Shown one piece after another: positions 1,684 to 55,009 of a stretch of DNA of 64,000 nucleotides. The notes beneath the pieces were generated by a model. The model was not told where the DNA came from. It worked only from the letters and a program-made list of their open reading frames with translations, and did no database searches. The position numbers and the translations under genes were made by a program. Source of the DNA: Parcubacteria bacterium C7867-005 (GTDB lineage: Bacteria > Patescibacteriota > Minisyncoccia > Phycocordibacterales > Zambryskibacteraceae); contig LFCO01000001.1 of NCBI GenBank assembly GCA_001189165.1, positions 10,987 through 74,986 on the forward strand. The letters run 5' to 3'. Positions within the stretch are counted from its first letter, which is position 1, and each line of letters begins with the position of its first letter.

Positions 1684-2436
1684 CTAGATGGTTGTTGAAG
1701 TATTGCCGGTGGATATCGTGTCGCCACTAGCTTGGGGGGACTTGATAGTTTTTACCTTCTCAAATATAAGCAATAATATCGTTATCCCTGCCCACACTGT
1801 GCCGAAAGTGAGGAAAATCCCCACATCTTTTTGGTTGATTATAAACAGATTGAAAACCGTATGGATGATAACTGCCAAAAGGAAAGAGAAGATGCCCCAG
1901 GAGATCTTTTTAAGTTTAGTTTTGTAAAAATTTAAAGAGAGCGCTACTCCGATCGTCGCAGAAGACACTATGTGGAGCAGTGAAGCTCCAATAAATCTCA
2001 TATTGCCCGTGAGCAGGCCCTCCAGGATGTGTTCTCTGACGATCATGTCTTCCTGAAGCAGGGGGTTCATTATAAAGAGCACATTTTCAACAGCCACAAA
2101 CCCAAGTGCCACTACGATCATATACATCATTGGGTCGAGTGGCTCATTATCCTCTCTGCCTCGAATCGCCACATAATATGCTGCCAAGAATTTGAATGCT
2201 TCTTCTGAAAATGCCCAAAAGGTGAAAGCCATCACTCCCATGCCGGGAAATATTCGATCGACCAGTACTTGTACTGGTAGTACTAAAACAACTACCGCGC
2301 CACCAGCTACGAACGTTTTTATTATGAGCCCTATCGGTTCTGGGTTTTGAGCATCCTCACGTAGCCAGAACACAAGCCAAATAATTGCAGGTAGTATCCC
2401 TATAGATAGCGCCAGAAAGATAATAGAGAAATCCAT
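1684..2436 (-). CDS. PrsW-family intramembrane metalloprotease
   Basis: Polytopic membrane protein with EExxK (FSEEAFKF), VENxLF, HxxxxATIG and HTVFN motifs characteristic of PrsW/CAAX-type proteases; start overlaps valS stop (TAATG). Confidence 0.65.
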   Translation of the reverse strand: MDFSIIFLALSIGILPAIIWLVFWLREDAQNPEPIGLIIKTFVAGGAVVVLVLPVQVLVDRIFPGMGVMAFTFWAFSEEAFKFLAAYYVAIRGREDNEPLDPMMYMIVVALGFVAVENVLFIMNPLLQEDMIVREHILEGLLTGNMRFIGASLLHIVSSATIGVALSLNFYKTKLKKISWGIFSFLLAVIIHTVFNLFIINQKDVGIFLTFGTVWAGITILLLIFEKVKTIKSPQASGDTISTGNTSTTI

Positions 2437-4610
2437 TAGTTTTCAAATTTGGGCCAGGACTCAACCATCAACAAGGGCCTATCCTTGGGGTGTGGCATGT
2501 TCTGCCATATTTCTTCGGTCACAAATGGCATGAATGGATGGAGCATCTTTAGGGATGTGCTTAGTATGAAATACAACTTACGCTTCGTTTCCTCATTTGC
2601 TATGTCGCCCTTACTTTCCTCTATGATTTTATCTGCAAATGTATGCCACACATAATGGTAGATTCTCTCAGAGGCATTGTGGATTCTAAAGTTATCAAGT
2701 TCATTTGTTGCTGTAGAGAATTCTTTGTACATCTCCTGTATATCTTCATCTTGGACTTCTGGTGTTTCAAATGAACTGGGTTGATTCGAGAGCACGAATC
2801 GGGTTATGTTCCAAAGCTTGTTGGCAAAATTTTTATAGCCCCGTATCTTGTCTTTGGAGATACTACTGTCTGTGCCCGCAGCTGTCCCAGATATGAGTGC
2901 CATACGACCTGCGTCTGTGCCAAACTCTTTGGCGACATCTATGGGGTCTATGCCGTTTCCCAAGCTCTTTGACATCTTTTGACCCTTGGCATCTCTGACT
3001 GTGCCGTGTAGATAGACAGTGCTGAAGGGAATTTGGCCGAGAACATATCCAGACATGAGCACCATCCGCGCCACCCAGAAAAACAAAATTTCATAACCAG
3101 TCTCAAGCAGGTTTGTTGGGTGATAATCCAGGAGGTCCTTGGTTTTATCTGGCCAACCTAAAGTTGAGAACGTCCAAAGTGCTGAAGAGAACCATGTGTC
3201 CAGAGTATCTGGATCTTGCGTCCAACCATCTTTTTCCCAAGTCTCTGATGGGGGATTTGTATCTACATGAGTTTCTCCGTCTCTATACCATACGGGTATC
3301 CTATGGCCGTACCAGATTTGTCTTGAAATACACCAGTCTCTGAGGTTGTCTATCCAGTGAAAATAAGTTTTATCAAAGTAATCTGGGATTATTTTTATCT
3401 GACCCTGGGACACAGCTTTCTGCATTATTTCTTTTAGGGTTGTTTCGGTTCCTGACTTTATCCCATTTATTTCTGAATGGGGGAGAATGAATGGTTTGTT
3501 CACTGCTACGAACCACTGAGTCATGATCTGTGGTTCTATGATCCCCCCTGTTCTCTCTGCGGTGGCTATGTTGTGGGTATAGTCTTCTGTCTTTACCAAC
3601 AAGCCTTTGGCATCCAGTTTCTCTATGATTTTCTCCCTGGCATCTTTGATCTTCATCATGGCGAATTCACCCGCGATTGGTAGTAATTTGCCGTACTGAT
3701 CGATGATTTTCTCTCTGTCCAACTTGTGTGTTTCTGCGATATCAAAATCTATTTGTGAATGAGCAGGGGTTATGGTCATCACTCCGGTGCCGAATTCCAT
3801 ATCAATCCTCTCATCTTTGATCACCGTTGCTTCGATCGGTCCATTTATCCACTCAACCATCAGTTTTTGTCCGTGGGTATATTCCTTGAACCTACTGTCT
3901 TCTGGATGCATCACTACATACTTGTCTCCGAATTTTGTTTCTGGCCGGGCTGTCCCTATAGTGAATGGCCCATATTTGAGATAATAAAATTTGGTTTTTT
4001 CTTCTACATAGACAACCTCATCGTCTGCGATTGTTGTCTGGCCCTTGGTGTCCCAGTTGACCATCCTCTCTCCACGATAAATTAACCCATCCTCATACAT
4101 CTTCTTGAAGACCGTTTTAACTGCCAAGTTTCTTTTTTCATCTAAGGTAAAGGCTTCTCTGCCCCAGTCACAGCTTGCGCCCATCACTTTTATTTGGGAG
4201 ACGATAGTGTCGTGGCTTTGCTTTGCAAAACTGTCGATCCTTTTTAGGAGTTCTTCACGTCCGATATCGTGCCTGCTTTTCTTTTCTTCTTTTTGAATCT
4301 CTTTCTCGACTTTGGATTGGGTGGCTATGGCCGCATGATCAGTCCCTGGAAGCCACAGGGTGCGTTTGCCGAGCATTCGGTTATACCTTACGAAGATATC
4401 TTCTACGGTGAGCATTAGTGCGTGCCCCATATGTAAAACCCCAGTCACGTTTGGTGGAGGCATGATAACCGTGTAGGTTGGGGCATCCTCTCTTGTAAAC
4501 CCTGATTCTATGGCTTTATTGGGGTTGAAAAATCCACCTTCTTCCCACAGAGAATAGATCCTTGCTTCGGTTTCAGTCGGATTATATGGCTTAAGAAACC
4601 TCTCATTCAT
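2436..4610 (-). CDS. valS: valyl-tRNA synthetase (short form lacking C-terminal coiled coil)
   Basis: Class I aaRS motifs PPPNVTGVLHMGHAL (HIGH variant typical of ValRS) and KMSKSLGNGIDP. Confidence 0.8.
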   Translation of the reverse strand: MNERFLKPYNPTETEARIYSLWEEGGFFNPNKAIESGFTREDAPTYTVIMPPPNVTGVLHMGHALMLTVEDIFVRYNRMLGKRTLWLPGTDHAAIATQSKVEKEIQKEEKKSRHDIGREELLKRIDSFAKQSHDTIVSQIKVMGASCDWGREAFTLDEKRNLAVKTVFKKMYEDGLIYRGERMVNWDTKGQTTIADDEVVYVEEKTKFYYLKYGPFTIGTARPETKFGDKYVVMHPEDSRFKEYTHGQKLMVEWINGPIEATVIKDERIDMEFGTGVMTITPAHSQIDFDIAETHKLDREKIIDQYGKLLPIAGEFAMMKIKDAREKIIEKLDAKGLLVKTEDYTHNIATAERTGGIIEPQIMTQWFVAVNKPFILPHSEINGIKSGTETTLKEIMQKAVSQGQIKIIPDYFDKTYFHWIDNLRDWCISRQIWYGHRIPVWYRDGETHVDTNPPSETWEKDGWTQDPDTLDTWFSSALWTFSTLGWPDKTKDLLDYHPTNLLETGYEILFFWVARMVLMSGYVLGQIPFSTVYLHGTVRDAKGQKMSKSLGNGIDPIDVAKEFGTDAGRMALISGTAAGTDSSISKDKIRGYKNFANKLWNITRFVLSNQPSSFETPEVQDEDIQEMYKEFSTATNELDNFRIHNASERIYHYVWHTFADKIIEESKGDIANEETKRKLYFILSTSLKMLHPFMPFVTEEIWQNMPHPKDRPLLMVESWPKFEN

Positions 4611-4887
4611 GTATTTCTATATTAACACAAGATATTTGGTGATAATTTGTGTTTGTATAGGACAAAATTTACACAGCCGATGCTCTGTTTCTGAGTAAAA
4701 AACAGAACCAGCGAACAGCCCTTATTCTATAGACATTTTTATCAGAATTAAAAATCCATTTAAGAGCATCTTCACCATAAAGGACAAATATGTATTATGT
4801 GTTGATAACAAAGGGTATTATTGCAGTTCTAGATACAAGCGCAACTATTGACAATTTTCTAAAAAAACGTAGGGTAGTGATGCCTGT

Positions 4888-7116
4888 ATGATAAAAGCTT
4901 TGAGACAAAAAACTCTCGTCAAAATCACCACATTTTATATGTTGGTGGCCTTATCTTTAGGAAGTTTCCCCTTTGATGTGTTCGCCGATACCCCTACGAT
5001 CACACTCCTTGCGAATGGACAGAGTTCTCTGACCCTATCTGGTCCAACCGAATCCTTTACGATCACCCTAAGCACTGCGAATCCTGCAGATATTTGTACT
5101 CAAACATCTCCTATAAATTCAGGAATTTCTTCCTCTTCTAGTGAAAACATAGATCCAAGTCATCCATTTTATCCACCTGCTGGTGGCAGTACCACCTTTT
5201 CTGTCACCTGTGATGATGGGGCCGGACTCACTGCTTCTGCGAGTGTCACCGTCTCTCTGCCACCAGCACCGGCTCCACTACCCACAGTAGACCTGACCGT
5301 AAATGGCTCAAATGGACCTGTCACCCTTAACTCTGGAGACACCTATACATATTCTTGGAATTCAACAAACTCCACCTCCTGTGAACAGACTTCACCGGCC
5401 ACTTCCGGCATTGCTCTTTCAGGATCTAGTGCAACGATCGATTCCAGTAATCCTTTCTATCCATCAACCACCACTCCGGTAACTCTCACCATGACCTGTA
5501 CAGATGGCACTAACACAGCGAGCGACTCTGTGACAGTAAACCTCTCAAGCGGAGGAGGCTCTACGCCGACTTCTCCTACAATAGACCTGACCGTAAATGG
5601 CTCAAATGGACCCGTTGTTTTGAGCACCGGCAACACCTATACATATTCATGGAATTCATCTAACGCTACGTCCTGCCGAGAGACCTCTCCACTGTTCTCT
5701 GGAACCTCTCTATTTGGTACCAGTGCGGTTATAGATTCAAGCCACCCTTTCTATCCTTCTGTGGGTTCACCCGTCACCATCACTATCGAATGTACTGACG
5801 GAGCTGTTACTGTAAGTGACTCTGTCGTGGTTAGCCTCTCAAGCGGAGGTGGAAATCCAAATCCAACCACTCCTACTGTGGATATCAAGGCGAATGGTTC
5901 TGACGGTCCGGTCACCCTCAATTCTGGTGATACCTATACATATTCTTGGACATCGGCTAATGCTACTTCTTGTTTACAGACAGCTCCTATAAATGCGGGT
6001 GTTTCTGCTACAGGTACAAGTGCGGTTATAGACTCAAACAATACTGATCTTTATCCATTGGTAAACGCACCAGTCACCCTCACTATCACCTGTACAGATG
6101 GCACTAACACAGCGAGCGACTCTGTGACAGTAAACCTCTCAAGCGGAGGAGGGAATCCAAGTACCCCACCAGGGGATGATGACGACAATGGTGGTGGAGG
6201 AGGGGGAGGCAGACGCAGGTCAACACCCCCTGCGACAGACACACGCTCTTGCTTGTGGTTAAGGGATTATATGAGGATTGATTTTCAGAACGACCAGATA
6301 GAGGTTATGAAGCTCCAGACTTTCCTAAAGGACATGATGGGTTACAGTGGAGTCACCGTCACTGGTACCTTCGATCAGGGAACATTTGATGCTGTATCCG
6401 CTTTCCAGATGCAATATGAGGCAGATATCCTCACTCCATGGGGTCACACAGCTCCAACAGGTTATGTTTATATACTAACCCTCAAGAAGGTTAATGAGAT
6501 TTTCTGCCAGAGAGCCTTCCCTATAACAGACTCACAAGAATTAGAGATAATCGCCTTCAGAGCTCTGCTCCAGAGTCTCAGGGATAGGGGATTTGAGGTC
6601 GGAAATACGCCTGACGGCACGGTCCTCACGCCTCCAGAGGGAGCAACAACCACTCCGCCGGAGATACCGACCGTCGGTCAAGGACAAAATTTACGGAATC
6701 TGGCCTCAGCCATATTCACACTCCCAACAGATCTGGGCGACTTCATGCAGTGCCTATACGAGTGGTTACTCATAGTAATTGTCCTTTATATCTTGGGAAG
6801 TGTCCTTAAAGATGTCCTTTATAAGGATCTCCCAGAGAATAGTCGAAAGAGATTCTTTGTGAAGTGGATAACAATATTAGCTGGCCTCGTCATCTCTATC
6901 GTATTGGCTCTCATATTTGGCGAGCTATGTATTATCTTCCCACTCGCCCTGTCATTCCTAGTGGCACTTATGTGGATTCTCACCAGCAAGAATCATGACT
7001 CGATCAGAGTCTCAGTCAAATCTTGGTACATCGTCCTCATGGCAAGATCTAAGTCTTTCTTCAATAAGGCAAACAGACCAAAGGAGATAGAAGCACCAAA
7101 GATTCCTAAAAACTAA
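4888..7116 (+). CDS. large secreted/cell-surface protein: signal peptide, 4 tandem Ig-like repeats (~95 aa), Gly-rich linker, peptidoglycan-binding (PG_binding_1-like) domain, C-terminal 3-TM anchor
   Basis: Repeated motif TVNGSNGPVTLNSGDTYTYSWNS..SC..TSP x4; PGBD signature LQTFLKDMMGYSGVTVTGTFDQGTFDAVSAFQ; GGGGGGGRRR linker; hydrophobic C-terminus. Confidence 0.7.
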   Translation: MIKALRQKTLVKITTFYMLVALSLGSFPFDVFADTPTITLLANGQSSLTLSGPTESFTITLSTANPADICTQTSPINSGISSSSSENIDPSHPFYPPAGGSTTFSVTCDDGAGLTASASVTVSLPPAPAPLPTVDLTVNGSNGPVTLNSGDTYTYSWNSTNSTSCEQTSPATSGIALSGSSATIDSSNPFYPSTTTPVTLTMTCTDGTNTASDSVTVNLSSGGGSTPTSPTIDLTVNGSNGPVVLSTGNTYTYSWNSSNATSCRETSPLFSGTSLFGTSAVIDSSHPFYPSVGSPVTITIECTDGAVTVSDSVVVSLSSGGGNPNPTTPTVDIKANGSDGPVTLNSGDTYTYSWTSANATSCLQTAPINAGVSATGTSAVIDSNNTDLYPLVNAPVTLTITCTDGTNTASDSVTVNLSSGGGNPSTPPGDDDDNGGGGGGGRRRSTPPATDTRSCLWLRDYMRIDFQNDQIEVMKLQTFLKDMMGYSGVTVTGTFDQGTFDAVSAFQMQYEADILTPWGHTAPTGYVYILTLKKVNEIFCQRAFPITDSQELEIIAFRALLQSLRDRGFEVGNTPDGTVLTPPEGATTTPPEIPTVGQGQNLRNLASAIFTLPTDLGDFMQCLYEWLLIVIVLYILGSVLKDVLYKDLPENSRKRFFVKWITILAGLVISIVLALIFGELCIIFPLALSFLVALMWILTSKNHDSIRVSVKSWYIVLMARSKSFFNKANRPKEIEAPKIPKN
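5290..6170 (+). repeat. DNA-level tandem repeats (~290-bp period) inside the surface protein gene
   Basis: Near-identical stretches e.g. gtaaatggctcaaatggacc (5301, 5592) and gcgagcgactctgtgacagtaaacctctcaagcggagga (5518, 6112). Confidence 0.65.
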
Positions 7117-8272
7117 GATTTCCGTTCGCCTTTAGCCGTTCTGGATTACCTGTGGATAACTTGTTGATTACTTTACCGCCAGAAATCTGGATATAGGCTG
7201 AAATACCTATCATCACTGCATTGTCTGTTGTCAAGGATTTCTCTGGTAGAAGTAGGTCGAGCCCAGAGAATTTGTCCGCGAGCTTGTGTAGCTCTCTTTG
7301 TAGATGGATGTTTTGAGATACTCCACCAGCGACAATCAGAGTTTTAGTATCGTATTTTTCTAAGGCTTGTTCGGTTTTGCTAATAAGTACTTCTACGGCC
7401 GAGTCCTCGAATTCATGAGACATCTCTTCTCGGATGTTTTCATTCACACCAGTTTCTTTTAATTTATATAAAACAGAAGTTTTCAGTCCAGAAAAAGAAA
7501 AGTCCAGATCTTTTGAATTGATCATCGGACGGGGTAAGGAAAAGGTTGGGACGAGGTTCTTGGATCGATGAAGTTCTGCAAGGGCAGAGACCTTTGGTCC
7601 GCCTGGATAAGGGAGGTCCAGTAAGCGAGCGACCTTGTCGAAAGCTTCGCCTACTGCATCATCTCTGGTCTTGCCTACGATCTTATATTCACCAAAGTTT
7701 TTGATATATACGAGTTCGGTGTGTCCTCCGGAAACAAGCAATGCAAGGGCGGGGAATACGAGTTTTTCTTTCAGATTAAGTAATGGGGAATAGATGTGAC
7801 CCTCCATATGATTCACTGGGTATACGGGCAGATCCCACAAAACTCCGAGTGCTTCTGCAAAGACTATACCTACCCACAATGCTGGTTCGAGCCCGGGACC
7901 AGTGGTTACTGCGATAGAGTCTATGTTTGGTTTATCTATCTCTAATATTTCTTTGGAGAACAATTTATATAGATCAGGCTCTTTGGTCAGGATTTTCTCT
8001 ATTTTCTCGATCATCTCTTGTGTTGGTTTTAAGCCGTATTTGGATTCGCCAAAGGCTTGTCTGAGGGTGGTGAGAAGAATGGGGACGAGGTTCTTGGCAT
8101 GTTCCCTGCGAGCGAGATTTGGATAGACCCCACCGAATTCTTTGTGGAGGTCTATCTGAGAGACAAGGGTGTTGCCAAGCACCTTGAATTCAGGGGATTT
8201 TAGCCCTCCTTCGGCCTCAAGTATGGCTATGGCTGTCTCATCACAGCTAGTTTCTATGGCTAAAATTTTCAT
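7106..8272 (-). CDS. tsaD: tRNA N6-adenosine threonylcarbamoyltransferase TsaD (Kae1/Gcp)
   Basis: MKILAIETSCDETAIAIL N-terminus, HMEGH metal-binding motif, GGVSQN. Confidence 0.85.
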   Translation of the reverse strand: MKILAIETSCDETAIAILEAEGGLKSPEFKVLGNTLVSQIDLHKEFGGVYPNLARREHAKNLVPILLTTLRQAFGESKYGLKPTQEMIEKIEKILTKEPDLYKLFSKEILEIDKPNIDSIAVTTGPGLEPALWVGIVFAEALGVLWDLPVYPVNHMEGHIYSPLLNLKEKLVFPALALLVSGGHTELVYIKNFGEYKIVGKTRDDAVGEAFDKVARLLDLPYPGGPKVSALAELHRSKNLVPTFSLPRPMINSKDLDFSFSGLKTSVLYKLKETGVNENIREEMSHEFEDSAVEVLISKTEQALEKYDTKTLIVAGGVSQNIHLQRELHKLADKFSGLDLLLPEKSLTTDNAVMIGISAYIQISGGKVINKLSTGNPERLKANGNLSF

Positions 8273-22945: not shown

Positions 22946-25403
22946 AGACGACCAGAATAAAATTGTAGAAAATAACGTCCGCGAAAGTGCGGTCGTTTCT
23001 CGCTCCATAGTCACAGAGATGAAAGAGTCATTCATCGACTATGCGATGTCGGTGATCACTGACCGTGCCCTACCAGATGTCAGAGACGGATTGAAGCCAG
23101 TACACAGACGCATTCTGTTCTCTATGAACGAGAAGGGTCTGACCGCTAGTGCCAAGAGTCGTAAATCCGCGACAGTAGTCGGAGATGTGCTCGGATCGTA
23201 TCACCCACATGGCGACGCGTCTGTTTATGATGCGATGGTCAAACTCGCTCAAGATTTCTCTACCAGGTACCCACTCATTATCGGACAAGGTAACTTCGGT
23301 TCTATAGACGGAGACGGTGCTGCTGCTTATAGATATACAGAGGCCAAGATGAGTCGTGTTGCTTCGGAGCTACTGAATGACATAGACAAAAACACCGTAG
23401 ATTTTAAGGCGAACTATGACGGTACCAAGAAAGAGCCAGTAGTCCTCCCCGCCGGTCTGCCAAACTTGTTGTTGAATGGAACACTCGGTATCGCAGTGGG
23501 TATGGCAACCAACATCCCTCCGCACAACCTGACCGAAGTAGCAGATGCGGTGATCAAGCTCATAGACAATCCAGAATCAACAACTGAGGACCTGCTCGAA
23601 TCAGTCAAGGGTCCAGACTTTCCAACTGGAGGAATAATTTTTAATCAAAAAGAAATACACCACGCTTATGCCACTGGACGTGGAGGCATCGTCGCTCGTG
23701 GAGTGGCTGACATCGTGGAGAATAAAGCGGGGAATTTCCAAATCATCATCACCGAGATACCTTATCGTGTAAACAAGTCAGCTCTGATAGAAAAAATAGC
23801 AGATCTAGTCAGAGAAAAGAAATTAGAAGGTATAAAAGGTTTGAGAGACGAATCTACAAAAGACATCCGTATCGCTATAGACCTCAAGGCTGGTTCTCAG
23901 CCACAGAAAATACTTAACTCACTCTACAAACACACTCAACTCGAGGATACTTTCCATGTGAACATGGTCGCACTCGTAGACGGAGTACCACAGACGCTCT
24001 CTCTCAAGTCGATGCTCCAGGAGTTTATTAAACACAGACAGATTGTCGTTAAACGTAGAGCAGAATTCGATCTAGACAAGGCGCTTGCTCGTGAACATAT
24101 CCTACTCGGTTTATCCAAAGCCCTCGACCACATCGAAGCGATTATCAAAACTATCCGAGCATCAAAGACAGTAGAGGAAGCCAAGGTCAACCTGATGAAA
24201 GAATTCAAATTCTCTGATCTACAAGCCTCTGCGATCCTCGAGATGCGTCTGCAGAAACTCGCAGGATTAGAGAGAAAGAAGATAGAAGAAGAGTTGAAGG
24301 AAGTTCAGAGCCTCATCAAATTCCTCAAAGACTTGCTTTCATCTGCAAAGAAAATGCTCGCTGTGGTCAAGGACGAACTTATCGCTGCGCGAGACAAGTA
24401 TGGAGACGATCGCCGCACTAAAGTGATCAAGGGTGGTGCCAAGATTCTGTCTGTCGAAGACATGATAGCTGAAGAAGAAAATGCGCTCGTCCTCACTTCT
24501 GGTGGATATATCAAGCGCACCAATCCAGACGAATACAAAAAACAGAAACGAGGAGGAGTTGGTGTGGTTGACCTTGATACCAAAGAAGAAGACTTTGTCA
24601 CCCATTTCCTCACTGCTTCTACTCACTCAGATCTACTTTTCTTTACGGATAAAGGCAAGGCCTATCAGATCAAGATGTATGACATCCCAGAAGGTAAGCG
24701 GGCGACAAGAGGCAAGTCAATTATGAATTTCATCTCTCTTTCAGATGATGAAAAGATCACATCCATACTCCCTATGTCCAAGGAATCCAAGAACATCAAG
24801 GGGGCACTCCTTATGGTCACTGAAGATGGTACTGCGAAGACAGTTGATGCCAAATCATTCTTCGATGTTCGTTCATCAGGCATTATTGCTATCAAACTTG
24901 CACCTGGCGACAGACTAGTATCTGTATCACTGGTTTACGAGGATGATGATGCGACTATCGTCACCAAAGAGGGTCAGTCAATCAGATTTAAGGCCAAGGA
25001 TATAAGAGAGATGGGTCGAGGAGCCGCTGGCGTAAGGGGTATTAAATTGGCTAAGGGAGATAAAGTAATCGGTGCCCATGAGATCAAAAAATCTTGGAAA
25101 TCTGCCCATCTTTTGGTTATCTCTGCGAATGGTTATGGCAAGAGAACAGATCTATCCGAATACAAATGCCAAGGTCGCGGTGGATCAGGCATCCTCACAT
25201 CCAAGGTCACAGATAAAACCGGTAAAGTCATGGCTTCGCAGATTGTGACCGAAGAAAGCGAAGAGGTGGTGGCTATATCAAAGAAAAGTCAGGTAGTCCG
25301 TGTAGACATAAAAGAAATTCCTGTACTCGGCAGACAAACTCAAGGCGTCCGTATCATGAAGCTCCGAGACGGTGACTCCCTCGCATCTCTCATCTGTTTG
25401 TAG
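22935..25403 (+). CDS. gyrA: DNA gyrase subunit A
   Basis: [17 protein letters not shown], active-site Tyr region [11 protein letters not shown]-terminal beta-pinwheel repeats; ends with TAG. Confidence 0.95.
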
Positions 25404-25472
25404 AATATTTTAAATATAAAAAGATAGGCCCCGGCAGTACTACTGCTAGGGCCTGAGTCGGCGCCTCGCCGA

Positions 25473-25916
25473 CTACCGGCGCGTGATGACCATGTTCTGC
25501 GTGACGAGCTCGTCCCTCCCGCCGTTGCAGGAGATGACGATCCTCGTCTGCTTGCTCGCGGCCGAGGGGTACCACCGATGCGACGGACCGATCTCGATCG
25601 GCTTCATGTCGGTCGGGACCTTGAAGGTGTCGCCGCCGGCGTTGATCCAGCATTCGTACGCGTACTCGGTCACGAGACCGATCACGAAGGTCTTGCCCTC
25701 CGCGACCTTGTAGAACTTCTCCTCGTTGCCCATCTCGTCCCGGACCGCGTTCGGCGCGATCGGATTCGCATCGGTGTCGATGGTGAGACCCTCGGAGGTC
25801 ACGGTCATCTTGAGGATGGTGACGCTCTCCGTCTGCGCGGCGACCGTGTTCATGATCGGCGCGAAGAGGAAGGTCGCGAGGAGGACGAGGAACTGTCCGA
25901 ACCGGCGGGTGTGCAT
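25473..25916 (-). CDS. GC-rich secreted hypothetical protein (signal peptide)
   Basis: MHTRRFGQFLVLLATFLFAPIMNTVAAQ SP; balanced composition, unlike the overlapping Arg/Asp-rich ORFs in other frames. Confidence 0.5.
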   Translation of the reverse strand: MHTRRFGQFLVLLATFLFAPIMNTVAAQTESVTILKMTVTSEGLTIDTDANPIAPNAVRDEMGNEEKFYKVAEGKTFVIGLVTEYAYECWINAGGDTFKVPTDMKPIEIGPSHRWYPSAASKQTRIVISCNGGRDELVTQNMVITRR

Positions 25917-26050
25917 GGAGCCTCCGTTCTGGTGGGTGGGAGCAGGAGTCTGCCGAGGAGTTCAGCAAACTTCTGGTAAGTAAATTACAAAAATATTAAA
26001 GATTTGTCAAACACCATAATTCGTTGTCTTTATTTTGCTATACTTAGTAC

Positions 26051-29930: not shown

Positions 29931-30197
29931 ATGATTACCGAATTTCTCGACAAGATAAATCAGTTCGTACTTAACCCGATCATCACACTTCTGTTCGCTG
30001 TTGCTTTCATCGTCTTTCTGTTCGGAGTGTTTCAGTTCGTCAAGGATGCCAAAGATGGTGATACAAAGGGTGAGGGCAAAAAAAAGATTATGTACGGATT
30101 ATTTGGTATGTTCATCATGTTCAGTGCCTATGGTCTCATTAGAATTGTCTTAGATACTTTTGGGATAGATAACCCACAAGATTACATCTCTCTCTAG
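29931..30197 (+). CDS. TrbC/VirB2-like pilin family protein, paralog 6
   Basis: 2 TM; FVKDAKDGDTKGEGKKKIMYGLFGMFIMFSAYG. Confidence 0.5.
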   Translation: MITEFLDKINQFVLNPIITLLFAVAFIVFLFGVFQFVKDAKDGDTKGEGKKKIMYGLFGMFIMFSAYGLIRIVLDTFGIDNPQDYISL

Positions 30198-30290
30198 ATA
30201 AAAAGAAAATCACTCCGAGCAAATGCGAGGGGTGACTTTTTTGTACAAGAAAGGGCGAGAGGGGATACCTCTCGCCCTGTCCACCAAAGC

Positions 30291-31214
30291 TCACTTCACC
30301 TCGAAGAGGTGGAGCTTGAGTGGAGCACTTTCCACACCTTCTCTGGTCTTGAACGACAGGAGCTTGCCCCGGTGATTCTCCACCGAGTCGATCGTGACCT
30401 TTGCGGTGTCGAACCACTGTTCGAGAGAGTACCCGTGTGGAACCTGCACCACCTTCGGACTGCCTGTCCTTAGGGTGCCGGTGCTGGTGAATTCCTCCAC
30501 GACCGGTTCGCGGTGAGCAACGACGGACGCGGTGGTACTTACACCAAAACCCCCGATGAGCTTCACCCACGGTCTCCAGAGGAAGGAGAAGAAGAAGAGT
30601 ACGAAGGTGAGCCACATCAGGTTTCTCGCCTTCTTGAACGACGGGCTCAGGTTGCTGTTCACGACCACCGTGAAGGCGATGAGCACGTGCCCGACCCAGA
30701 ACAGGGTGTTGCCCCGGAGCCACTTGTAGGCTTCCGGACTGCCCCAGCTCGCGATCCAGTGGAACGCAATCACGAATCCGAGGACGATCAGGTACACGGT
30801 CCATTGGGGCTTCCAGGTGAGTCCACCCGTGCCCCTCTTGTCCCATACCTTCTTGATTCCCCAGGTGATGAGTGCCAACCCAGCGAGTCCTGCAAGAACT
30901 GAGAGGCTGATCCAGAGCCACTTGAATGAGCCGAGGCTGATGCCCTCGCCGATCGCAGAGCTCATCATCCATGCGATGATGATCACTGCGAGTACGAGCA
31001 AGGCCAGGAAGACCCTGACCCTGCCCTTGGTCCAGCGAACCTTCTTCGGGGAAGCGCTCGTTGTCGGAGCACTGCCTGCGGCAGCGCGATTCCTGAATTT
31101 GTTCACAGTCCATTCGACCATGAGCTTCACTTCTGCATACCTGTTCCCGAACCACTGTCCGACCTTCGTCGAACCGGTGTTTCTGTTGGTGTACCACTGT
31201 CCGATCTTTCCCAT
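30291..31214 (-). CDS. GC-rich hypothetical polytopic membrane protein (4-5 TM)
   Basis: 307 aa; GC-rich; Trp-rich TM helices; no motif recognised. Confidence 0.4.
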   Translation of the reverse strand: MGKIGQWYTNRNTGSTKVGQWFGNRYAEVKLMVEWTVNKFRNRAAAGSAPTTSASPKKVRWTKGRVRVFLALLVLAVIIIAWMMSSAIGEGISLGSFKWLWISLSVLAGLAGLALITWGIKKVWDKRGTGGLTWKPQWTVYLIVLGFVIAFHWIASWGSPEAYKWLRGNTLFWVGHVLIAFTVVVNSNLSPSFKKARNLMWLTFVLFFFSFLWRPWVKLIGGFGVSTTASVVAHREPVVEEFTSTGTLRTGSPKVVQVPHGYSLEQWFDTAKVTIDSVENHRGKLLSFKTREGVESAPLKLHLFEVK

Positions 31215-31343
31215 GGGTATAACCTCGGTGGTGTGTGTTCAAATCAATGTGCAGGTTTGTCTTATTATATCATATAAATATCACTTTTGTCAAGTATAAA
31301 AATAGGGCCAAGCGACTTGTCGTTTGGCCCTTCCCACAATGCA

Positions 31344-32387
31344 TTACTTCGTACCACCGACCACCGGGAGCGCACCACTGCCGTAGACGACGGTGGTTGC
31401 CACTCCGTTCTTCTCGTGTGCGGTTGCCCACCTGTTGGCAGGCTCGTTCGCGAGCTTCATGGTTGGCTCAGTCACACGAGTGTACAGATCAGCCGCTGCG
31501 TCGTTCAGGAGCATCTTCTCCTTCTTCTCAGCTTCAGCGTTGGTGATTCTGACCCTCGCCTGCGCCTCGGCTTGCACCTGCAGTTCGAGGATCGCTTCTT
31601 GCTTCGGATCCATCGTTGGTGACAGCATGCTCATCGACTTGATCTTGAGACCCAGCTGTTCAAGGGCCTCTGCGTGGAAAGCATCATTCTTCATGATTGC
31701 ATCCACAAGGTCCTGCTTGAGCTTGCCAGAGTTGGCACCACCACGATAGTCTGCGGCGTTGTTCCCACCGACGATGTTACTCACGATGCTCTCGATCATC
31801 CCCTCGAGGTACGCGAGTGGGTTTGACACCCGCAACACAGATCGAATGGGGAAGACCCGCTCGAAGATCAAGTTGAACCTGAATCCGAGCTTGAGCTGGT
31901 CCTTGGTCTCGAGGCCTTCAAGATTGGCGACGAGATCCCCGGAGTAGTAGATGAACTTCGGGAGTTGGTCGCTGTTCTCGACAACCCGGTTCCCGTCCGC
32001 ATCCCTTTTGTTGCTGAAGCGGAGGTGAACGTCCGAGTTAGTCCGCACGCTGGGGAACAAACTGATCCACTCGACGCCGAGCAGTTTATACAGAAGCTTG
32101 TCGTGTCTAGGATCGACCTCCATCCCATCGGGCAGATCCTTAACCTCCCAGTTCATCGGATCTGGGTCAGTCTTGTCGATGAACTTGCCGGGGATGGCAT
32201 GTCGGAGGTCGACAATGGCACCACCACCCTGGGTGGTCTTGCCGTCCTCCTTGTCGTCACTGACGATCAGAGCCAAGGCGTTGGCCGAGGTGATCAGCCA
32301 GAGACGGCCGATCCTGCCGAACGACCTGATACCCACGGCAATGCCGAGGATGATCAGGAAGAGGATGAAAATGATGGCGCCGAACAT
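31344..32387 (-). CDS. SPFH/band-7 (prohibitin/flotillin-like) membrane protein
   Basis: N-terminal TM and SPFH core; C-terminal Ala/Glu-rich coiled coil ILELQVQAEAQARVRITNAEAEKKEK; start at MFGAIIF (32387) supported by RBS AAGGAG 7 nt upstream. Confidence 0.65.
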   Translation of the reverse strand: MFGAIIFILFLIILGIAVGIRSFGRIGRLWLITSANALALIVSDDKEDGKTTQGGGAIVDLRHAIPGKFIDKTDPDPMNWEVKDLPDGMEVDPRHDKLLYKLLGVEWISLFPSVRTNSDVHLRFSNKRDADGNRVVENSDQLPKFIYYSGDLVANLEGLETKDQLKLGFRFNLIFERVFPIRSVLRVSNPLAYLEGMIESIVSNIVGGNNAADYRGGANSGKLKQDLVDAIMKNDAFHAEALEQLGLKIKSMSMLSPTMDPKQEAILELQVQAEAQARVRITNAEAEKKEKMLLNDAAADLYTRVTEPTMKLANEPANRWATAHEKNGVATTVVYGSGALPVVGGTK

Positions 32388-32503
32388 CCGATGTCTCCTT
32401 GTGGCAAAGCCACGAGAGTAGTAATGCAATCAACGAGCATCTAGTTCTGGCGGAATTTTATCACAAAACGACACAGAAGTCAAGTTGGAATTGAGCTTAG
32501 TTT

Positions 32504-51664: not shown

Positions 51665-52621
51665 ATGAGTCAAGGTTTCTGGAACAAATTAAAAAAACCA
51701 ATCATGGTTCTCGCGCCGATGGCAGATGTCACTGATCCGGCCTTTCGACGTATTATCGCTCGGCATGGTAAACCAGACGTCACTTGGACCGAGTTCGTTT
51801 CTGCTGATGGTCTTGTCCTCGCACCAGAAGAGGGTAGGAAGAAACTCTTGAAAGATTTGGAATACTCTGAATCCGAGCGTCCAATCGTCGCTCAATTCTT
51901 CACCTCATCTCCAGAAAATATGGAGAAGGCAGCTAGACTCGCACGTGAGCTTGGGTTTGATGGCATAGATATAAATATGGGTTGTCCAGACAAGAGCATA
52001 GAGAAGCAGTGTGCTGGTGCTGCGCTCATCAAGAATCCAAAGCTCGCTCGGGAGTTAATTCGTTCTGCTAAACTCGGTGCGGGGGATCTGCCTGTATCTG
52101 TGAAAACCCGTGTTGGGTACAACAAAGAAGAACTCGATATATGGATAAAAGAGATACTCAGTGAATCCCCAGCCGTGCTCACGGTCCATGCGCGTACGAG
52201 GAAGGAGATGTCCAAAGTCCCCGCACGTTGGGAGCTAGTGAAGAGAGTGGTAGAGATGAGGGATGAGCTCGGTGTAGACACTTTGATACTGGGGAATGGT
52301 GATGTAGTAGATATTGATGATGGCAGGAGGAAATGCGAAGAGACTGGCGCAGATGGGGTGATGCTCGGCAGGGCGATATTTGGTAACCCGTGGTTATTTG
52401 CAGAACATATACCCACCACTAGAGAGAAATTATTAGTGATGGTAGAGCATACAAAACTATTTGAAAAATTACTCGGCGAATACAAAAATTTCGCCATTAT
52501 GAAGAAACACTATAAGGCGTATGTGAACGGGTTTGAAGGAGCAGGGGAGCTTCGTGGTCAACTGATGCTGGCTGTAGATGCAAGGGGGGTCGAAGAAGTA
52601 GTCCACAACTATCTGAAATAG
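51665..52621 (+). CDS. dus: tRNA-dihydrouridine synthase
   Basis: MVLAPMADVTDPAFRRI, DGIDINMGCP (catalytic Cys), TVHART; start MSQGF at 51665 (the ORF track extends to 51575 into a GC-rich leader). Confidence 0.85.
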   Translation: MSQGFWNKLKKPIMVLAPMADVTDPAFRRIIARHGKPDVTWTEFVSADGLVLAPEEGRKKLLKDLEYSESERPIVAQFFTSSPENMEKAARLARELGFDGIDINMGCPDKSIEKQCAGAALIKNPKLARELIRSAKLGAGDLPVSVKTRVGYNKEELDIWIKEILSESPAVLTVHARTRKEMSKVPARWELVKRVVEMRDELGVDTLILGNGDVVDIDDGRRKCEETGADGVMLGRAIFGNPWLFAEHIPTTREKLLVMVEHTKLFEKLLGEYKNFAIMKKHYKAYVNGFEGAGELRGQLMLAVDARGVEEVVHNYLK

Positions 52622-53157
52622 TGTTTTGACAGTCATCTTGCATATAGTATATTTAGATTTCTGGTGCTAAGCGGTAGCGGACAGACGTGTCTCTACGGAG
52701 CCCAGATCCTGCACCCTCAGTTCCATTCACCCCAGGAGGTTCACGGTGCCCCGACGTAACGCCCCGTCGTTCCACCTGAAGATCGCCCAGACCGCGTACC
52801 AGCAGGCGAAGGCCGGGATCCTCACCGGCAAGAGCGCGACCGATCCGCAGTACACCGACGGCGATTCCGCCGCGGCCATCCGCGCCTAGCACAAGGCGAA
52901 GAGCGCAACGCGCGGACACGAGGTACACCGACGCAAGACACACATCAGCGCCGGTGCGACCCAGATCGTCTTCCTGAAGTGAACACAACCGTCCGCAAGG
53001 ACACCTACCCGCACCGATTTCCATCGGTGCGAATCTTTTTATATAGGCTATTGACTTTATTTTGTATATATGCTAGGGTTAACTTGTTGAGGTCGAGCGA
53101 CAGGGAATCACCCTGTGAGGCCACAACAAGCACACTCCACTCGTTCGGAGGATCCAC

Positions 53158-53313
53158 ATGATCAGCCGCTCCCTCGCTCCGCCGTCCGTCGCGCTCCTCT
53201 CGGCCACCCACACGGGGGCCCGTATGAACACCATGGTCCATCGCGGCGCGAACATCGTCGGCATCGGCATCCACGGCTCGGGCGCGTCGCCCGCCGCCGG
53301 CTCCCGCGACTAG
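53158..53313 (+). CDS. candidate GC-rich mini-ORF (51 aa, MISRSLAPPSVALLSATHTGARMNTMVHRGANIVGIGIHGSGASPAAGSRD) with RBS GGAGG; coding status uncertain
   Basis: AT-rich promoter-like block (TTGACT..TATATA) at 53045-53075, GGAGG 6 nt before ATG, two downstream hairpins; ends at TAG. Confidence 0.25.
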   Translation: MISRSLAPPSVALLSATHTGARMNTMVHRGANIVGIGIHGSGASPAAGSRD

Positions 53314-53613
53314 CACGGCCGCGGCGCCGATCACTGTCATTCGACAGAAGGCATCAGCCCTTCGGTTGAACTGACGGCAACCTCTCGTGCTTCTCTGTAC
53401 GAGTAGGACTTCGTTCGAGTACGACTCGGGAGTGCCGACGGGGTGGATCGTTTGAATCCATCGCCGTCGGCACGACCCGACCCCCCGCGCACCCTAACCC
53501 GGTGCGTTTAACTTTTATAAAATTTCCCTGTGCGTGTATAATAAGATTCTGGTTGGGGATGCAGTTTGCAAACTCTAACCAGATGTTCTCACATCCTTCC
53601 ACGGAGTCCTGCC

Positions 53614-53736
53614 ATGAAAGACCGGCACTCGAGCACCAGACACCCGCGTATGGGAGTCACTCTCGAGACCAAGGGCCAGATGCGAAGCAAGACCGGCGGA
53701 TCCATCCGCTACATGTGGCCAACCCCAGGAGGCTGA
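53614..53736 (+). CDS. candidate GC-rich mini-ORF (40 aa) in the second promoter-terminator unit; may instead be an sRNA
   Basis: Extended -10-like gtgTATAAT at ~53540, GGAG 7 nt before ATG, hairpin gagcgactcatgtgagtcgctc + T-rich at 53766-53795. Confidence 0.2.
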   Translation: MKDRHSSTRHPRMGVTLETKGQMRSKTGGSIRYMWPTPGG

Positions 53737-53799
53737 TCCATGGAATACGGTGCGTGAACACCCCCGAGCGACTCATGTGAGTCGCTCTCTTTAATACAG

Positions 53800-54136: not shown

Positions 54137-55009
54137 ATGCATCGCGCTCGGCTGTATCTCTTGCTTGCGGTGGGGATATTCCTCACCGCCTGCAGGAATG
54201 AGACCAACGTCTTCGGCCCCGGCAACGGTCCGAACGGACCGAATAACGGACCAGACGGTGGACGATCGGCGTTCGCATCGGCAGGCTTCAGGCCCGCTGA
54301 CACGACCATCGTGGTGAGCACCCGCTACCACGCTCTGGGCCAGATCTTCGTCGAGCAGGGTCGGTCACCGAACCTGCTCATCCGTACGAGGCAGTGCGTC
54401 CAGTACGTGGGCTCACCGCTCATCACCTGGACCGGCCAGTCTGGCTGGTACAACGTGGACGTCACCCTCCAGGGTGTGGCTACGTGCAGGGATTCGATCG
54501 TGTTCAAGTTCGCGCACGATACGACCATCACCACGTTCATCCGTGCGACGGTCGTCTCCGCTCCTGGTGGCCCCGGCATCCCCACGATGACGGTGACACC
54601 TCCGGGCGGTAGTGGTCCGGTCGGTACTGGTTCGCAGTCGAATTGCATCATCACTGGTGTCACTGACACGCGGTGCTGGGCATACTCGACGGATCCTTCA
54701 CGGATCGCTGTGGTTCAGAAGGATACAACCTTCGCAACCGCGACGAACCCGTGGACGGCCGGATCACATCTGTCCGGTGAGATCCGATTCATGTTCGCAG
54801 GTTCGGCGAATATCTGCAGGTACTGGGTCGTTGACCCACGAGTGGCACAGTGCCATCAGTGGAATGCGACGGTCCCGAGCCTGCAGTCGTCCGACATGAT
54901 GTCGGCGAGCTACGGACTTCGTGATGCGAAGCTGTCCGAAGAGGGCGGCCGTCTTTACGAGGTCGTCCTCGATCGGATGAAGCAGAACGGGGAGAAAATC
55001 CACCGGTAG
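54137..55009 (+). CDS. GC-rich lipoprotein (lipobox LTAC), hypothetical
   Basis: MHRARLYLLLAVGIFLTAC signal and lipobox; RBS TAGGAGATCCCATG; GC-rich. Confidence 0.5.
   Translation: MHRARLYLLLAVGIFLTACRNETNVFGPGNGPNGPNNGPDGGRSAFASAGFRPADTTIVVSTRYHALGQIFVEQGRSPNLLIRTRQCVQYVGSPLITWTGQSGWYNVDVTLQGVATCRDSIVFKFAHDTTITTFIRATVVSAPGGPGIPTMTVTPPGGSGPVGTGSQSNCIITGVTDTRCWAYSTDPSRIAVVQKDTTFATATNPWTAGSHLSGEIRFMFAGSANICRYWVVDPRVAQCHQWNATVPSLQSSDMMSASYGLRDAKLSEEGGRLYEVVLDRMKQNGEKIHR

What the first reader, a model, noticed from the sequence alone, without database searches (positions are those of the whole stretch)
4888..7116. 742-aa surface protein with four Ig-like tandem repeats, poly-Gly linker, peptidoglycan-binding domain and C-terminal 3-TM anchor
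Four ~95-aa repeats (consensus ...VDLTVNGSNGPVTLNSGDTYTYSWNS.N.TSC..TSP...SGTSA.IDSS.PFYPS...PVTLT.TCTDGTNTASDSVTVNLSSGGG) are also repeated at DNA level (~290-bp period, long identical stretches), indicating recent expansion or homogenisation. They are followed by GGGGGGGRRR, a PG_binding_1-type module (LQTFLKDMMGYSGVTVTGTFDQGTFDAVSAFQ) and three C-terminal TM helices. Combining adhesin-like Ig repeats with a PG-binding domain and a C-terminal membrane anchor is atypical. The protein is a candidate cell-cell attachment or S-layer-like protein whose repeat number is likely variable.
Basis: partly seen in the sequence, partly recalled or inferred. Interest (0 to 1): 0.5.

Follow-up and report, generated by a model that had tools for sequence, protein, structure and literature searches.

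The report
Wall-and-membrane anchored Parcubacteria surface protein
This gene encodes a cell-surface protein of an ultra-small groundwater bacterium in which four Ig-like domains sit on a conserved, previously undescribed peptidoglycan-binding plus three-helix membrane anchor; related species keep the gene at the same chromosomal spot but swap the outer part, which makes it a candidate host-attachment determinant.

Summary

The repeats are old at DNA level (63-70% identity; R1 only 45-49%). One 65-nt and one 31-nt exact tract point to short gene conversion, not recent expansion.

The protein is already deposited (Parcubacteria bacterium C7867-005) as "T1SS secreted agglutinin RTX". That name is unsupported: no RTX motifs, an N-terminal signal peptide and a membrane-embedded C-terminus.

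In 80 species-level genomes the homologue almost always lies between valS and tsaD. Its PG-binding + 3-TM cassette is about as conserved as those housekeeping genes. The ectodomain is often replaced by DUF11, He_PIG, VWA or other Ig-like modules. The 3-TM module has no Pfam, PDB or PHROG counterpart and carries a co-varying Cys pair.

Best reading (confidence 0.6): a surface display/adhesion protein tethered to the cell's own membrane and wall. It is a new variant of a known kind, of moderate interest.

The parts
4888..7116 (+). Whole gene: 742-aa precursor. The mature protein is ~74 kDa with pI 4.4.
   Evidence: ORF list. 100% identical to P0001 from Parcubacteria bacterium C7867-005. Mass and pI.
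4888..4986 (+). Sec-type signal peptide, aa 1-33: n-region with 4 K/R, a hydrophobic core, then VFA|D.
   Evidence: Sequence and charge count. The same pattern is seen in the orthologues read. No dedicated signal-peptide predictor was available.
4990..5271 (+). Repeat R1 (aa 35-128): a divergent, membrane-distal 'cap' Ig-like domain.
   Evidence: Repeat-HMM hit 3e-19. Its best matches are the R1 domains of orthologues (55-56%), not R2-R4.
5278..5559 (+). Repeat R2 (aa 131-224): Ig/PKD-like beta-sandwich with Cys165/Cys204.
   Evidence: AlphaFold2 pLDDT 95.9, all-beta. Foldseek top hit is the 1l0q PKD domain, TM 0.60. The Cys pair is invariant in 73 repeats.
5572..5853 (+). Repeat R3 (aa 229-322).
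   Evidence: Repeat-HMM hit 4.7e-33. 68% aa and 67% nt identity to R2.
5869..6153 (+). Repeat R4 (aa 328-422).
   Evidence: Repeat-HMM hit 8.7e-34. 69% aa and 70% nt identity to R2.
5494..5558 (+). A 65-nt tract identical to 6088-6152 in R4, read as a gene-conversion-like tract.
   Evidence: Longest common substring. Background identity is ~60%.
6154..6249 (+). Gly/Pro-rich acidic-then-basic linker (aa 423-454), including G435-G441 and RRR.
   Evidence: Sequence. The seven Gly use mixed codons, so this is not a slippage-prone trinucleotide run. Three consecutive Gly columns are >=90% conserved in the family.
6250..6585 (+). PG_binding_1-type domain with an extra helix (aa 455-566), bracketed by invariant Cys455/Cys540.
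6586..6687 (+). Beta-hairpin plus Thr/Pro-rich juxtamembrane linker (aa 567-600).
   Evidence: AlphaFold2 secondary structure. This is the least conserved stretch of the C-terminal part, with mean pairwise identity 0.29.
6655..7113 (+). Conserved C-terminal 3-TM module (aa 590-742). It comprises an amphipathic helix (601-609), TM1 (616-644), TM2 (652-677), TM3 (680-700) and a basic cytoplasmic helix/tail (701-742).
   Evidence: AlphaFold2. Hydropathy. Positive-inside charge counts. A profile search finds only 185 clusters, always C-terminal. Cys622/Cys681 co-vary. No Pfam, PDB or PHROG family matches.
2436..4610 (-). Context: divergently transcribed valS (valyl-tRNA synthetase), the conserved upstream neighbour.
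   Evidence: ORF. Same arrangement in L001-L003. Present within 1.5 kb upstream in 49 of 55 assessable loci.
7106..8272 (-). Context: convergent tsaD. Its 3' end overlaps the gene by 11 nt. It is the conserved downstream neighbour.
   Evidence: ORF. tsaD lies downstream on the minus strand in 76 of 80 loci. Similar 3' overlaps occur in L002 and L003.

Best explanation
The gene encodes a Sec-exported surface display/adhesion protein that is fixed to the cell's own envelope at two points.

**Proposed sequence of events**
1. The signal peptide is cleaved.
2. The C-terminal 3-TM module stays in the cytoplasmic membrane, N-terminus outside and the basic tail inside.
3. The PG_binding_1 domain lies only ~30-50 residues from the membrane and docks non-covalently onto the bacterium's own peptidoglycan.
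4. The conserved Gly/Pro-rich linker acts as a thin, flexible wall-spanning hinge.
5. The four disulfide-braced Ig/PKD-like domains project beyond the wall as a stalk, with the distinct R1 domain at the tip.
6. This outer part contacts a partner cell or substrate.

**Family picture**
- Across the clade, the PG-binding + membrane-anchor cassette is a conserved core part.
- It sits at a fixed chromosomal site between valS and tsaD.
- The outward-facing part is exchanged or resized between lineages.

**Shown**
- Domain anatomy and folds.
- Conservation pattern and synteny.
- Ectodomain replacement.

**Inferred**
- Topology.
- Binding to the cell's own wall.
- The adhesive role.
For: **Anatomy**
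- ORF and domains.
- Repeat model pLDDT 95.9, with PKD/Ig-like hits.
- C-terminal model pLDDT 83, with three long TM helices.

**Topology**
- N-terminal signal peptide.
- 6 K/R in the TM1-TM2 loop and 10 in the tail, against 1 before TM1 and 0 in the TM2-TM3 turn.
- Cys622 (start of TM1) and Cys681 (TM2-TM3 turn) are both Cys in 98 of 168 family sequences, both non-Cys in 67, and mixed in only 3. This fits a disulfide on the outer face.

**The cassette is one unit**
- The 3-TM profile finds only 185 clusters among 1.84 billion representatives, always at the C-terminus.
- 92 of 102 such proteins with enough upstream sequence carry the PG-binding domain, a median of 27 residues upstream.

**Core locus**
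- The order PrsW-valS(-) | gene(+) | tsaD(-) is seen in L001-L004.
- tsaD follows in 76 of 80 species loci, and valS precedes in 49 of 55.
- Median identity to the window: ValRS 54%, TsaD 54%, anchor 48%.

**Swapped ectodomain**
- 49 of 80 loci have no BLAST-detectable similarity to this ectodomain, although their anchors are up to 60% identical.
- Those loci carry DUF11 + He_PIG, VWA + Bact_surface_Ig-like, fn3 and similar modules.

**Supporting literature**
- Peptidoglycan synthesis is part of the Parcubacteria core genome (PMC4508563).
- Highly expressed secreted proteins with PG-binding domains were proposed as attachment factors in three Paceibacteria (PMC10936435).
Against: - No experiment or expression data exist for this family.
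- The highly expressed PG-binding protein that could be checked in PMC10936435 (PMX_810_sub_00350) is not at a valS-tsaD locus, so orthology is unverified.
- PG binding is inferred from homology only.
- Ig/PKD-like domains are also used as inert spacers, so adhesion is not shown.
- The 3-TM module is more conserved than a passive anchor needs to be (42% mean pairwise identity, with near-invariant Tyr634, Pro613 and Pro685). It may therefore have a further, unknown function.
- The Cys co-variation test is not corrected for phylogeny.
Confidence: 0.6

Rival explanations
1. S-layer or envelope-scaffold protein. The Ig-like array forms, or supports, a regular outer coat, and the PG-binding + TM cassette is its anchor. 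This would be analogous to archaeal S-layer stalk proteins with C-terminal TM anchors.
For: - The top structural match of the repeat is the PKD domain of a Methanosarcina S-layer protein. The Deinococcus HPI S-layer is ranked 4th.
- The mature protein is acidic, pI 4.4.
- The gene is found once in each locus examined, at a fixed core position, in 80 species-representative genomes.
- S-layer proteins have been predicted in Patescibacteria (bioRxiv 10.1101/2024.05.28.596244).
Against: - No lattice-forming evidence exists.
- There is no evidence of very high expression; the promoter-like matches do not exceed chance.
- The ectodomain is replaced by unrelated modules, including VWA, in close relatives. 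That is more typical of adhesins than of a lattice that must self-assemble.
- The PDB matches are generic Ig folds with E > 1e-3.
Confidence: 0.15
2. Host-wall grappling protein. The PG_binding_1 domain binds the peptidoglycan of a bacterial host rather than the cell's own wall.
For: - PG-binding secreted proteins were proposed as host-attachment factors in Paceibacteria (PMC10936435).
- The Parcubacteria lifestyle is inferred to be ectosymbiotic or parasitic (PMC4508563).
Against: - The PG-binding domain is the membrane-proximal part, a median of 27 residues from the TM module. The repeats lie distal to it. It is therefore placed next to the cell's own wall.
- The organism makes its own peptidoglycan.
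- The hosts in the cited study are archaea, which lack peptidoglycan.
Confidence: 0.1
3. Wall-homeostasis or division scaffold. The conserved PG-binding + 3-TM cassette is the functional core, for example positioning or regulating wall enzymes or sensing the state of the wall. The ectodomain is secondary.
For: - The anchor is about as conserved as ValRS and TsaD.
- The 3-TM module has near-invariant residues and a co-varying Cys pair.
- The neighbourhood also holds divIC, ftsZ and ftsA in relatives.
- PG_binding_1 usually accompanies wall enzymes.
Against: - No catalytic or signalling domain is detected in Pfam or NCBIfam.
- The flanking genes are on the opposite strand, so there is no operon link.
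- Large adhesin-type ectodomains of up to 1,700 aa are maintained in every lineage.
Confidence: 0.1
4. The database name is right: a type I-secreted RTX agglutinin.
For: Only the name attached to the deposited record.
Against: - No GGxGxD nonapeptide is present anywhere.
- No T1SS or RTX family appears in NCBIfam or Pfam, even at E <= 10.
- There is an N-terminal Sec signal peptide.
- The C-terminus, where a T1SS signal would sit, is three TM helices.
Confidence: 0.01

Closest known systems
Sortase-anchored Gram-positive adhesins (MSCRAMM / serine-rich repeat proteins such as SraP)
   Same: - Signal peptide, tandem Ig-like beta-sandwich stalk, low-complexity wall-spanning linker and a C-terminal envelope anchor.
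- Relatives at the same locus carry He_PIG modules. These match the SraP 'serine-rich adhesin for platelets' structures 4m03/4m00 (E 1e-8).
   Different: - No LPXTG motif.
- Anchoring would be non-covalent (PG_binding_1) plus a polytopic membrane module, not covalent sortase linkage.
PG_binding_1-bearing wall enzymes (SleB, CtpB, Streptomyces Zn DD-peptidase, phage endolysins KZ144/AP3)
   Different: - No catalytic domain.
- The domain has an added fourth helix and a bracketing invariant Cys pair.
- It is fused to a TM module and to Ig-like repeats.
Archaeal surface-layer proteins with PKD domains and C-terminal membrane anchors (e.g. Methanosarcina mazei surface layer protein, PDB 1l0q)
   Same: The best structural match of the repeat (E 1.6e-3, TM 0.60). 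Both have a beta-sandwich ectodomain. The C-terminal membrane anchoring of archaeal S-layer proteins is cited from general knowledge and was not tested here.
   Different: - A bacterial protein with a PG-binding domain.
- Sequence identity is only 18%.
- No evidence of lattice formation.
Membrane-to-wall tethers such as OmpA-like/Pal/MotB proteins
   Same: The logic is the same: a membrane-embedded segment plus a non-covalent peptidoglycan-binding domain, linking two envelope layers.
   Different: - A different PG-binding fold (PG_binding_1, not OmpA-like).
- A different membrane.
- A large outward-facing ectodomain.

Membership tests
PG_binding_1 (Pfam PF01471) | Profile score at or above Pfam's gathering threshold | tested here: met
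   26.9 bits against 23, aa 472-510, profile positions 4-41 of 57.
PG_binding_1 (Pfam PF01471) | Three-helix bundle fold shared with solved PG-binding domains | tested here: met
PG_binding_1 (Pfam PF01471) | Actual binding to peptidoglycan | not testable with these tools
   Needs a sacculus pull-down with recombinant aa 445-575.
PKD / bacterial Ig-like (Big, CARDB, He_PIG) Pfam families | Profile score at or above the gathering threshold for any of these families | tested here: not met
   K319L-like_PKD 19.9 against 27, and StcE_b-sandwich 24.1 against 27. Of 73 repeats scanned singly, at most 6 touch any one family, with a best E-value of ~3e-4. Repeat R2 itself matches none.
PKD / bacterial Ig-like (Big, CARDB, He_PIG) Pfam families | Ig-like beta-sandwich fold | tested here: met
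   pLDDT 95.9, eight strands. The best match is the PKD domain of 1l0q (probability 1.00, TM 0.60), followed by titin, Dscam and SorCS2-PKD.
RTX / type I-secreted agglutinins (the name in the database record) | Glycine-rich nonapeptide GGxGxD repeats | tested here: not met
   No match to the motif anywhere in the 742 aa.
RTX / type I-secreted agglutinins (the name in the database record) | No N-terminal signal peptide, and a free C-terminal secretion signal | tested here: not met
   An N-terminal signal-peptide pattern is present, and the C-terminus is three TM helices. No T1SS/RTX family appears in NCBIfam at E <= 10.
Sortase-dependent LPXTG surface proteins | LPXTG-type sorting motif followed by a single hydrophobic segment and a basic tail | tested here: not met
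   No LPx[TSA]G. There are three TM helices, not one.
Bacterial S-layer proteins | A recognised S-layer anchoring or lattice domain (SLH, CWB2, etc.) | tested here: not met
   No such family in Pfam or NCBIfam, even at E <= 10.
Bacterial S-layer proteins | Self-assembly into a 2-D lattice and very high abundance | not testable with these tools
   No expression or imaging data exist for this family. The literature searches found none.
PG-binding + 3-TM anchor cassette family (defined here) | PG_binding_1-type domain followed within ~30-70 residues by the conserved C-terminal 3-TM module. The gene lies between valS and tsaD. | tested here: met
   The window protein matches the PG-binding HMM (3e-60) and the TM HMM (5e-57). 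It is flanked by valS(-) and tsaD(-), as are the relatives.

The most novel reading that the evidence does not exclude
The valS-tsaD locus of Paceibacteria/Parcubacteria may encode the lineage's main host-recognition protein.
- The PG-binding + disulfide-braced 3-TM cassette is a new domain, conserved about as well as the flanking housekeeping genes. It would be a universal socket in the envelope.
- Ectodomain cassettes (PKD-like repeats, DUF11, He_PIG, VWA) would be swapped or resized on it, setting partner specificity.
- The unusually conserved TM module might also relay ligand engagement across the membrane.
Probability: 0.2. Interest if true: 0.65.

Novelty: new variant of a known kind. 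Interest (0 to 1): 0.42.

Why it matters
Parcubacteria are abundant, uncultured and thought to live attached to other cells, yet the molecules that mediate attachment are unknown. This family offers three things.

- **A concrete candidate.** It is one gene found at a fixed chromosomal position. The envelope-anchoring half is about as conserved as the flanking housekeeping genes, and the outward-facing half is exchanged between species.
- **A simple genomic marker.** The valS | X | tsaD arrangement can be used to pull out the surface determinant from any related genome. Ectodomain type can then be compared with co-occurring hosts.
- **A new anchoring solution for a monoderm-like envelope.** PG_binding_1 plus a 3-TM module would replace sortase, SLH or LysM anchoring.

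The work also corrects a misleading database name (RTX/T1SS agglutinin).

Tried and rejected
1. **Tandem Repeats Finder** on 4000-8000 found nothing. The repeats are too diverged. The repeat finder and a codon alignment were used instead.
2. **An error of mine, corrected.** My first 'longest identical run' of 44 nt was an artefact: a gap column reset the count. Direct comparison gives 65 nt.
3. **RTX/T1SS reading** rejected: no motif, wrong termini.
4. **LPXTG/sortase anchoring** rejected.
5. **Holin- or phage-like origin of the 3-TM + PG-binding module.** PHROGs gave only a weak endolysin PG-binding hit (E 0.008) and nothing for the TM part.
6. **A known family for the TM module.**
   - Pfam scans of 35 members hit 54 different families sporadically, with E-values no better than ~7.5e-4 and no family matching more than 9 of 35 members.
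   - The PDB sequence profile gave only phospholamban at E 0.49.
7. **Poly-Gly as a slippage-prone repeat** rejected: it uses mixed codons.
8. **Expression evidence from PMC10936435.** The PG-binding gene that could be traced is at another locus. valS and tsaD are not adjacent in that genome, so the data cannot be transferred.
10. **Genome scan with the TM-only alignment** failed for lack of a sufficiently conserved stretch. The scan was redone with A1.
11. **Promoter and terminator scans** did not exceed shuffled expectation.
12. **Literature searches** for this architecture in Parcubacteria found nothing specific.
Full report
**1. What is at the coordinates**

ORF 4888..7116 (+) starts with ATG and encodes 742 aa. 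It is 100% identical to a deposited protein, 'MAG: T1SS secreted agglutinin RTX [Parcubacteria bacterium C7867-005]' (P0001). That genome is a 564-kb bin from oxic Hanford groundwater (Nelson & Stegen 2015, PMC4508563). The gene stands alone on its strand. valS (2436..4610) is divergent upstream. tsaD (7106..8272) is convergent downstream and overlaps the gene's 3' end by 11 nt. Promoter-like and terminator-like matches around the gene do not exceed shuffled expectation.

**2. Anatomy of the protein**

| aa | Feature |
|---|---|
| 35-128 | Repeat R1 |
| 131-224 | Repeat R2 |
| 229-322 | Repeat R3 |
| 328-422 | Repeat R4 |
| 423-454 | Linker GGNPSTPPGDDDDNGGGGGGGRRRSTPPATDTRS |
| 455-566 | PG_binding_1-type domain |
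| 567-600 | Beta-hairpin and Thr/Pro-rich linker |
| 601-609 | Short amphipathic helix |
| 616-644 | TM1 |
| 652-677 | TM2 |
| 680-700 | TM3 |
| 701-742 | Basic tail, with a predicted helix at 703-728 |

The mature protein is ~74 kDa with pI 4.4.

**3. The repeats**

- An AlphaFold2 model of R2, built on 73 repeat sequences, has mean pLDDT 95.9 and is all-beta.
- Foldseek against the PDB puts the PKD domain of a Methanosarcina surface-layer protein first (1l0q, E 1.6e-3, TM 0.60). Other PKD/Ig-like domains follow, including the Deinococcus HPI S-layer, SorCS2 and titin.
- No Pfam Ig, PKD, Big or CARDB model reaches its gathering score, either on the whole protein or on 73 repeats scanned singly.
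- The two Cys of each repeat are the only invariant columns.

**4. DNA-level repetition**

- Tandem Repeats Finder reports nothing.
- The repeat finder gives three copies at 294-300-nt spacing, with 64-83% identity over ~115-nt pieces.
- In a codon alignment, R2-R4 are 63-70% identical in DNA and 63-69% in protein.
- R1 is only 45-49% identical in DNA and 37-40% in protein.
- At positions with the same amino acid, 46-55% of codons differ. The duplications are therefore old.
- Two exact tracts stand out against this background: 65 nt (5494-5558 = 6088-6152, R2/R4) and 31 nt (5288-5318 = 5582-5612, R2/R3).
- A sliding window shows 96-100% identity over ~75 nt for R2/R4, against ~60% elsewhere.
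- This mosaic fits short-tract gene conversion, not a recent expansion.
- My earlier figure of 44 nt was a counting artefact.

Across 36 orthologues, internal repeats are more alike within a protein (0.66) than between proteins (0.51). R1 always groups with the R1 of other proteins. One relative (P0026) has two identical repeats. Copy number ranges from 2 to 8. Repeat turnover is therefore a family trait, even though this copy is not recent.

**5. The PG-binding domain**

- Pfam PG_binding_1 scores 26.9 bits against a gathering score of 23.
- The C-terminal 303 aa, modelled on 41 sequences, reach pLDDT 83, with block means of about 90-98 over most of the domain.
- Foldseek agrees, with CtpB and SltB3.
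- Cys455 and Cys540, which bracket the domain, are invariant in the family.
- No catalytic domain is present.

**6. The 3-TM module**

- A profile of the module (A3) searched against 1.84 billion representative proteins finds only 185 clusters at E <= 1e-3. The match is always at the C-terminus.
- Of 102 such proteins with more than 170 residues upstream, 92 carry the family's PG-binding domain, a median of 27 residues before the module.
- The module has no counterpart in Pfam (54 families touched sporadically, E-values no better than ~7.5e-4, none by more than 9 of 35 members).
- It also has none in PDB sequences, PHROGs or solved folds.
- It is better conserved than a passive anchor needs to be: mean pairwise identity is 0.42, against 0.29 for the adjacent linker. 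Pro613, Tyr634 and Pro685 are nearly invariant.
- Cys622 lies at the outer start of TM1 and Cys681 in the TM2-TM3 turn. Both are Cys in 98 sequences, both non-Cys in 67, and mixed in 3. This test is not corrected for phylogeny.
- The charge distribution is 6 K/R in the TM1-TM2 loop and 10 in the tail, against 1 before TM1 and none in the TM2-TM3 turn.
- Together these support an N-out/C-in topology, probably with an extracytoplasmic disulfide.

**7. A conserved locus with a replaceable outer half**

- In three relatives looked up directly, the order is LepA - DivIC - glutaredoxin - ... - HSP20 - PrsW - ValRS(-) | gene(+) | TsaD(-). PrsW is also next to valS in the window.
- A scan of one genome per species (GTDB) found 286 tblastn-confirmed relatives, and the best 80 were kept.
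- tsaD lies just downstream on the opposite strand in 76 of 80 loci. valS lies just upstream in 49 of 55 assessable loci.
- Sixty loci have the 3-TM module by HMM. The other 20 have the PG-binding domain followed by a single hydrophobic segment.
- Median identity to the window is ValRS 54%, TsaD 54% and anchor 48%. In several loci, such as L007-L009, the anchor (56-60%) is as conserved as the flanks.
- Yet 49 of 80 loci have no BLAST-detectable similarity to this ectodomain.
- Those ectodomains are built from DUF11 + He_PIG, VWA + Bact_surface_Ig-like, fn3 and similar modules. Protein sizes run from ~460 to ~1,700 aa.

**8. How it most likely works**

Shown:
- a signal peptide;
- Ig-like repeats;
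- a PG_binding_1 fold next to a polytopic membrane module;
- a family-wide conserved anchor with a variable ectodomain.

Inferred:
- The protein is exported by Sec.
- It is retained by the 3-TM module.
- It is docked onto the cell's own peptidoglycan. The wall-binding domain sits within a few tens of residues of the membrane, and the organism makes peptidoglycan.
- It passes through the wall by the conserved Gly/Pro-rich hinge. Three consecutive Gly columns are >=90% conserved. The Gly run uses mixed codons, so it is selected at the protein level and is not a slippage tract.
- It presents the repeat stalk, with the distinct R1 tip, to the outside.
- The alternative ectodomains are of adhesin types, including VWA. 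This favours attachment over pure spacing. I give this reading 0.6.

**9. Rivals**

- **S-layer or scaffold protein (0.15).** Suggested by the S-layer PKD match and by the single, fixed locus. There is no lattice or abundance evidence, and wholesale ectodomain replacement argues against it.
- **Binding of a host's peptidoglycan (0.1).** The wall-binding domain is on the wrong end of the molecule for this.
- **A wall-homeostasis or division role for the anchor itself (0.1).** The strong conservation of the cassette keeps this open. No enzymatic or signalling domain is present, and the neighbouring genes are on the other strand.
- **The deposited RTX/T1SS name (0.01).** There are no GGxGxD repeats and no such family at E <= 10. 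An N-terminal signal peptide and a membrane-embedded C-terminus contradict it.

**10. Comparison with known systems**

- Functionally the protein resembles Gram-positive wall-associated adhesins, with a signal peptide, Ig-like stalk, wall-spanning linker and C-terminal anchor. It lacks LPXTG. Covalent sortase attachment would be replaced by PG_binding_1 plus a 3-TM module.
- It shares the PG-binding fold with SleB, CtpB and endolysins, but has no enzyme domain.
- It shares the 'membrane segment + wall-binding domain' logic with OmpA/Pal-type tethers, but uses a different fold.
- One study reports highly expressed secreted proteins with PG-binding domains in three archaeon-parasitising Paceibacteria and proposes a role in attachment (PMC10936435).
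- The one gene I could trace from that study lies at a different locus. valS and tsaD are not adjacent in that genome. Orthology is unverified, and no expression data can be transferred.

**11. Novelty and score**

- The protein is already in public databases, under a wrong name. Its relatives are labelled 'peptidoglycan-binding protein' or 'hypothetical'.
- I found no paper describing the family.
- New here are the PG-binding + 3-TM cassette as a unit, the co-varying Cys pair, the fixed valS | X | tsaD position and the ectodomain replacement.
- It is a new variant of a known kind: an envelope-anchored adhesin-like surface protein.
- Interest is moderate (0.42). It is useful to people working on ultra-small symbiotic bacteria. 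It is not startling, and function remains inferred.

**12. Limits**

- No signal-peptide or TM predictor beyond hydropathy and AlphaFold2 was available.
- Record titles of many related genomes read 'uncultured Candidatus Saccharibacteria bacterium' although they share the Parcubacteria-type synteny. I did not verify their taxonomy.

Noticed in passing
window 52500-54900: A GC-rich patch (0.52-0.66, against ~0.45 for the window). About 1.5 kb (52622-54136), between dus and an ORF with no Pfam hit (54137..55009), has no ORF longer than 123 aa and no Rfam match even at E <= 1.
   Followed up: partly
window 30000-32000: A second GC-rich patch (0.54). It holds ORF 30139..31242 (-) with no Pfam hit and a Band_7/SPFH ORF at 31344..32429 (-).
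   Followed up: no
window 25390-25968 (-): A 192-aa ORF with a weak match to the repeat HMM (E 1.4e-4, one domain) and no Pfam hit. It may be a small protein carrying a single related Ig-like domain.
   Followed up: no
window 7106-7116: The gene and the convergent tsaD overlap by 11 nt at their 3' ends. Similar overlaps of 4-11 nt occur in relatives L002 and L003.
   Followed up: partly
L052-L083 (20 of 80 loci), e.g. L073 = Parcubacteria bacterium C7867-006: At the same valS-tsaD position these genomes have the PG-binding domain followed by a single hydrophobic segment ~80-110 residues downstream, in place of the 3-TM module. The 3-TM module may be a clade-specific elaboration of a simpler anchor.
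   Followed up: partly
P0026 (650 aa; found): Two internal repeats are 100% identical in protein over the aligned repeat-HMM columns, which indicates a very recent duplication in that lineage.
   Followed up: no
L035 (3-kb contig) and many CAxx... loci: One contig carrying the anchor and tsaD is titled 'Candidatus Nanoarchaeia archaeon', which probably reflects mis-binning. Dozens of loci titled 'uncultured Candidatus Saccharibacteria bacterium' share the Parcubacteria-type synteny, so the labels look generic.
   Followed up: no
L051 6994-7920: A second, shorter ORF (308 aa) with the PG-binding domain but no TM module lies directly after the main gene and before tsaD.
   Followed up: no
family-wide, aa 435-444 of the window protein: The poly-Gly run is followed by a short basic motif (RRR here; HHH, RH or GRG in relatives) about 10 residues before the first Cys of the PG-binding domain. 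A processing site cannot be excluded.
   Followed up: no
window, whole: There are 13 tRNA genes and no other Rfam family at gathering score.
   Followed up: yes
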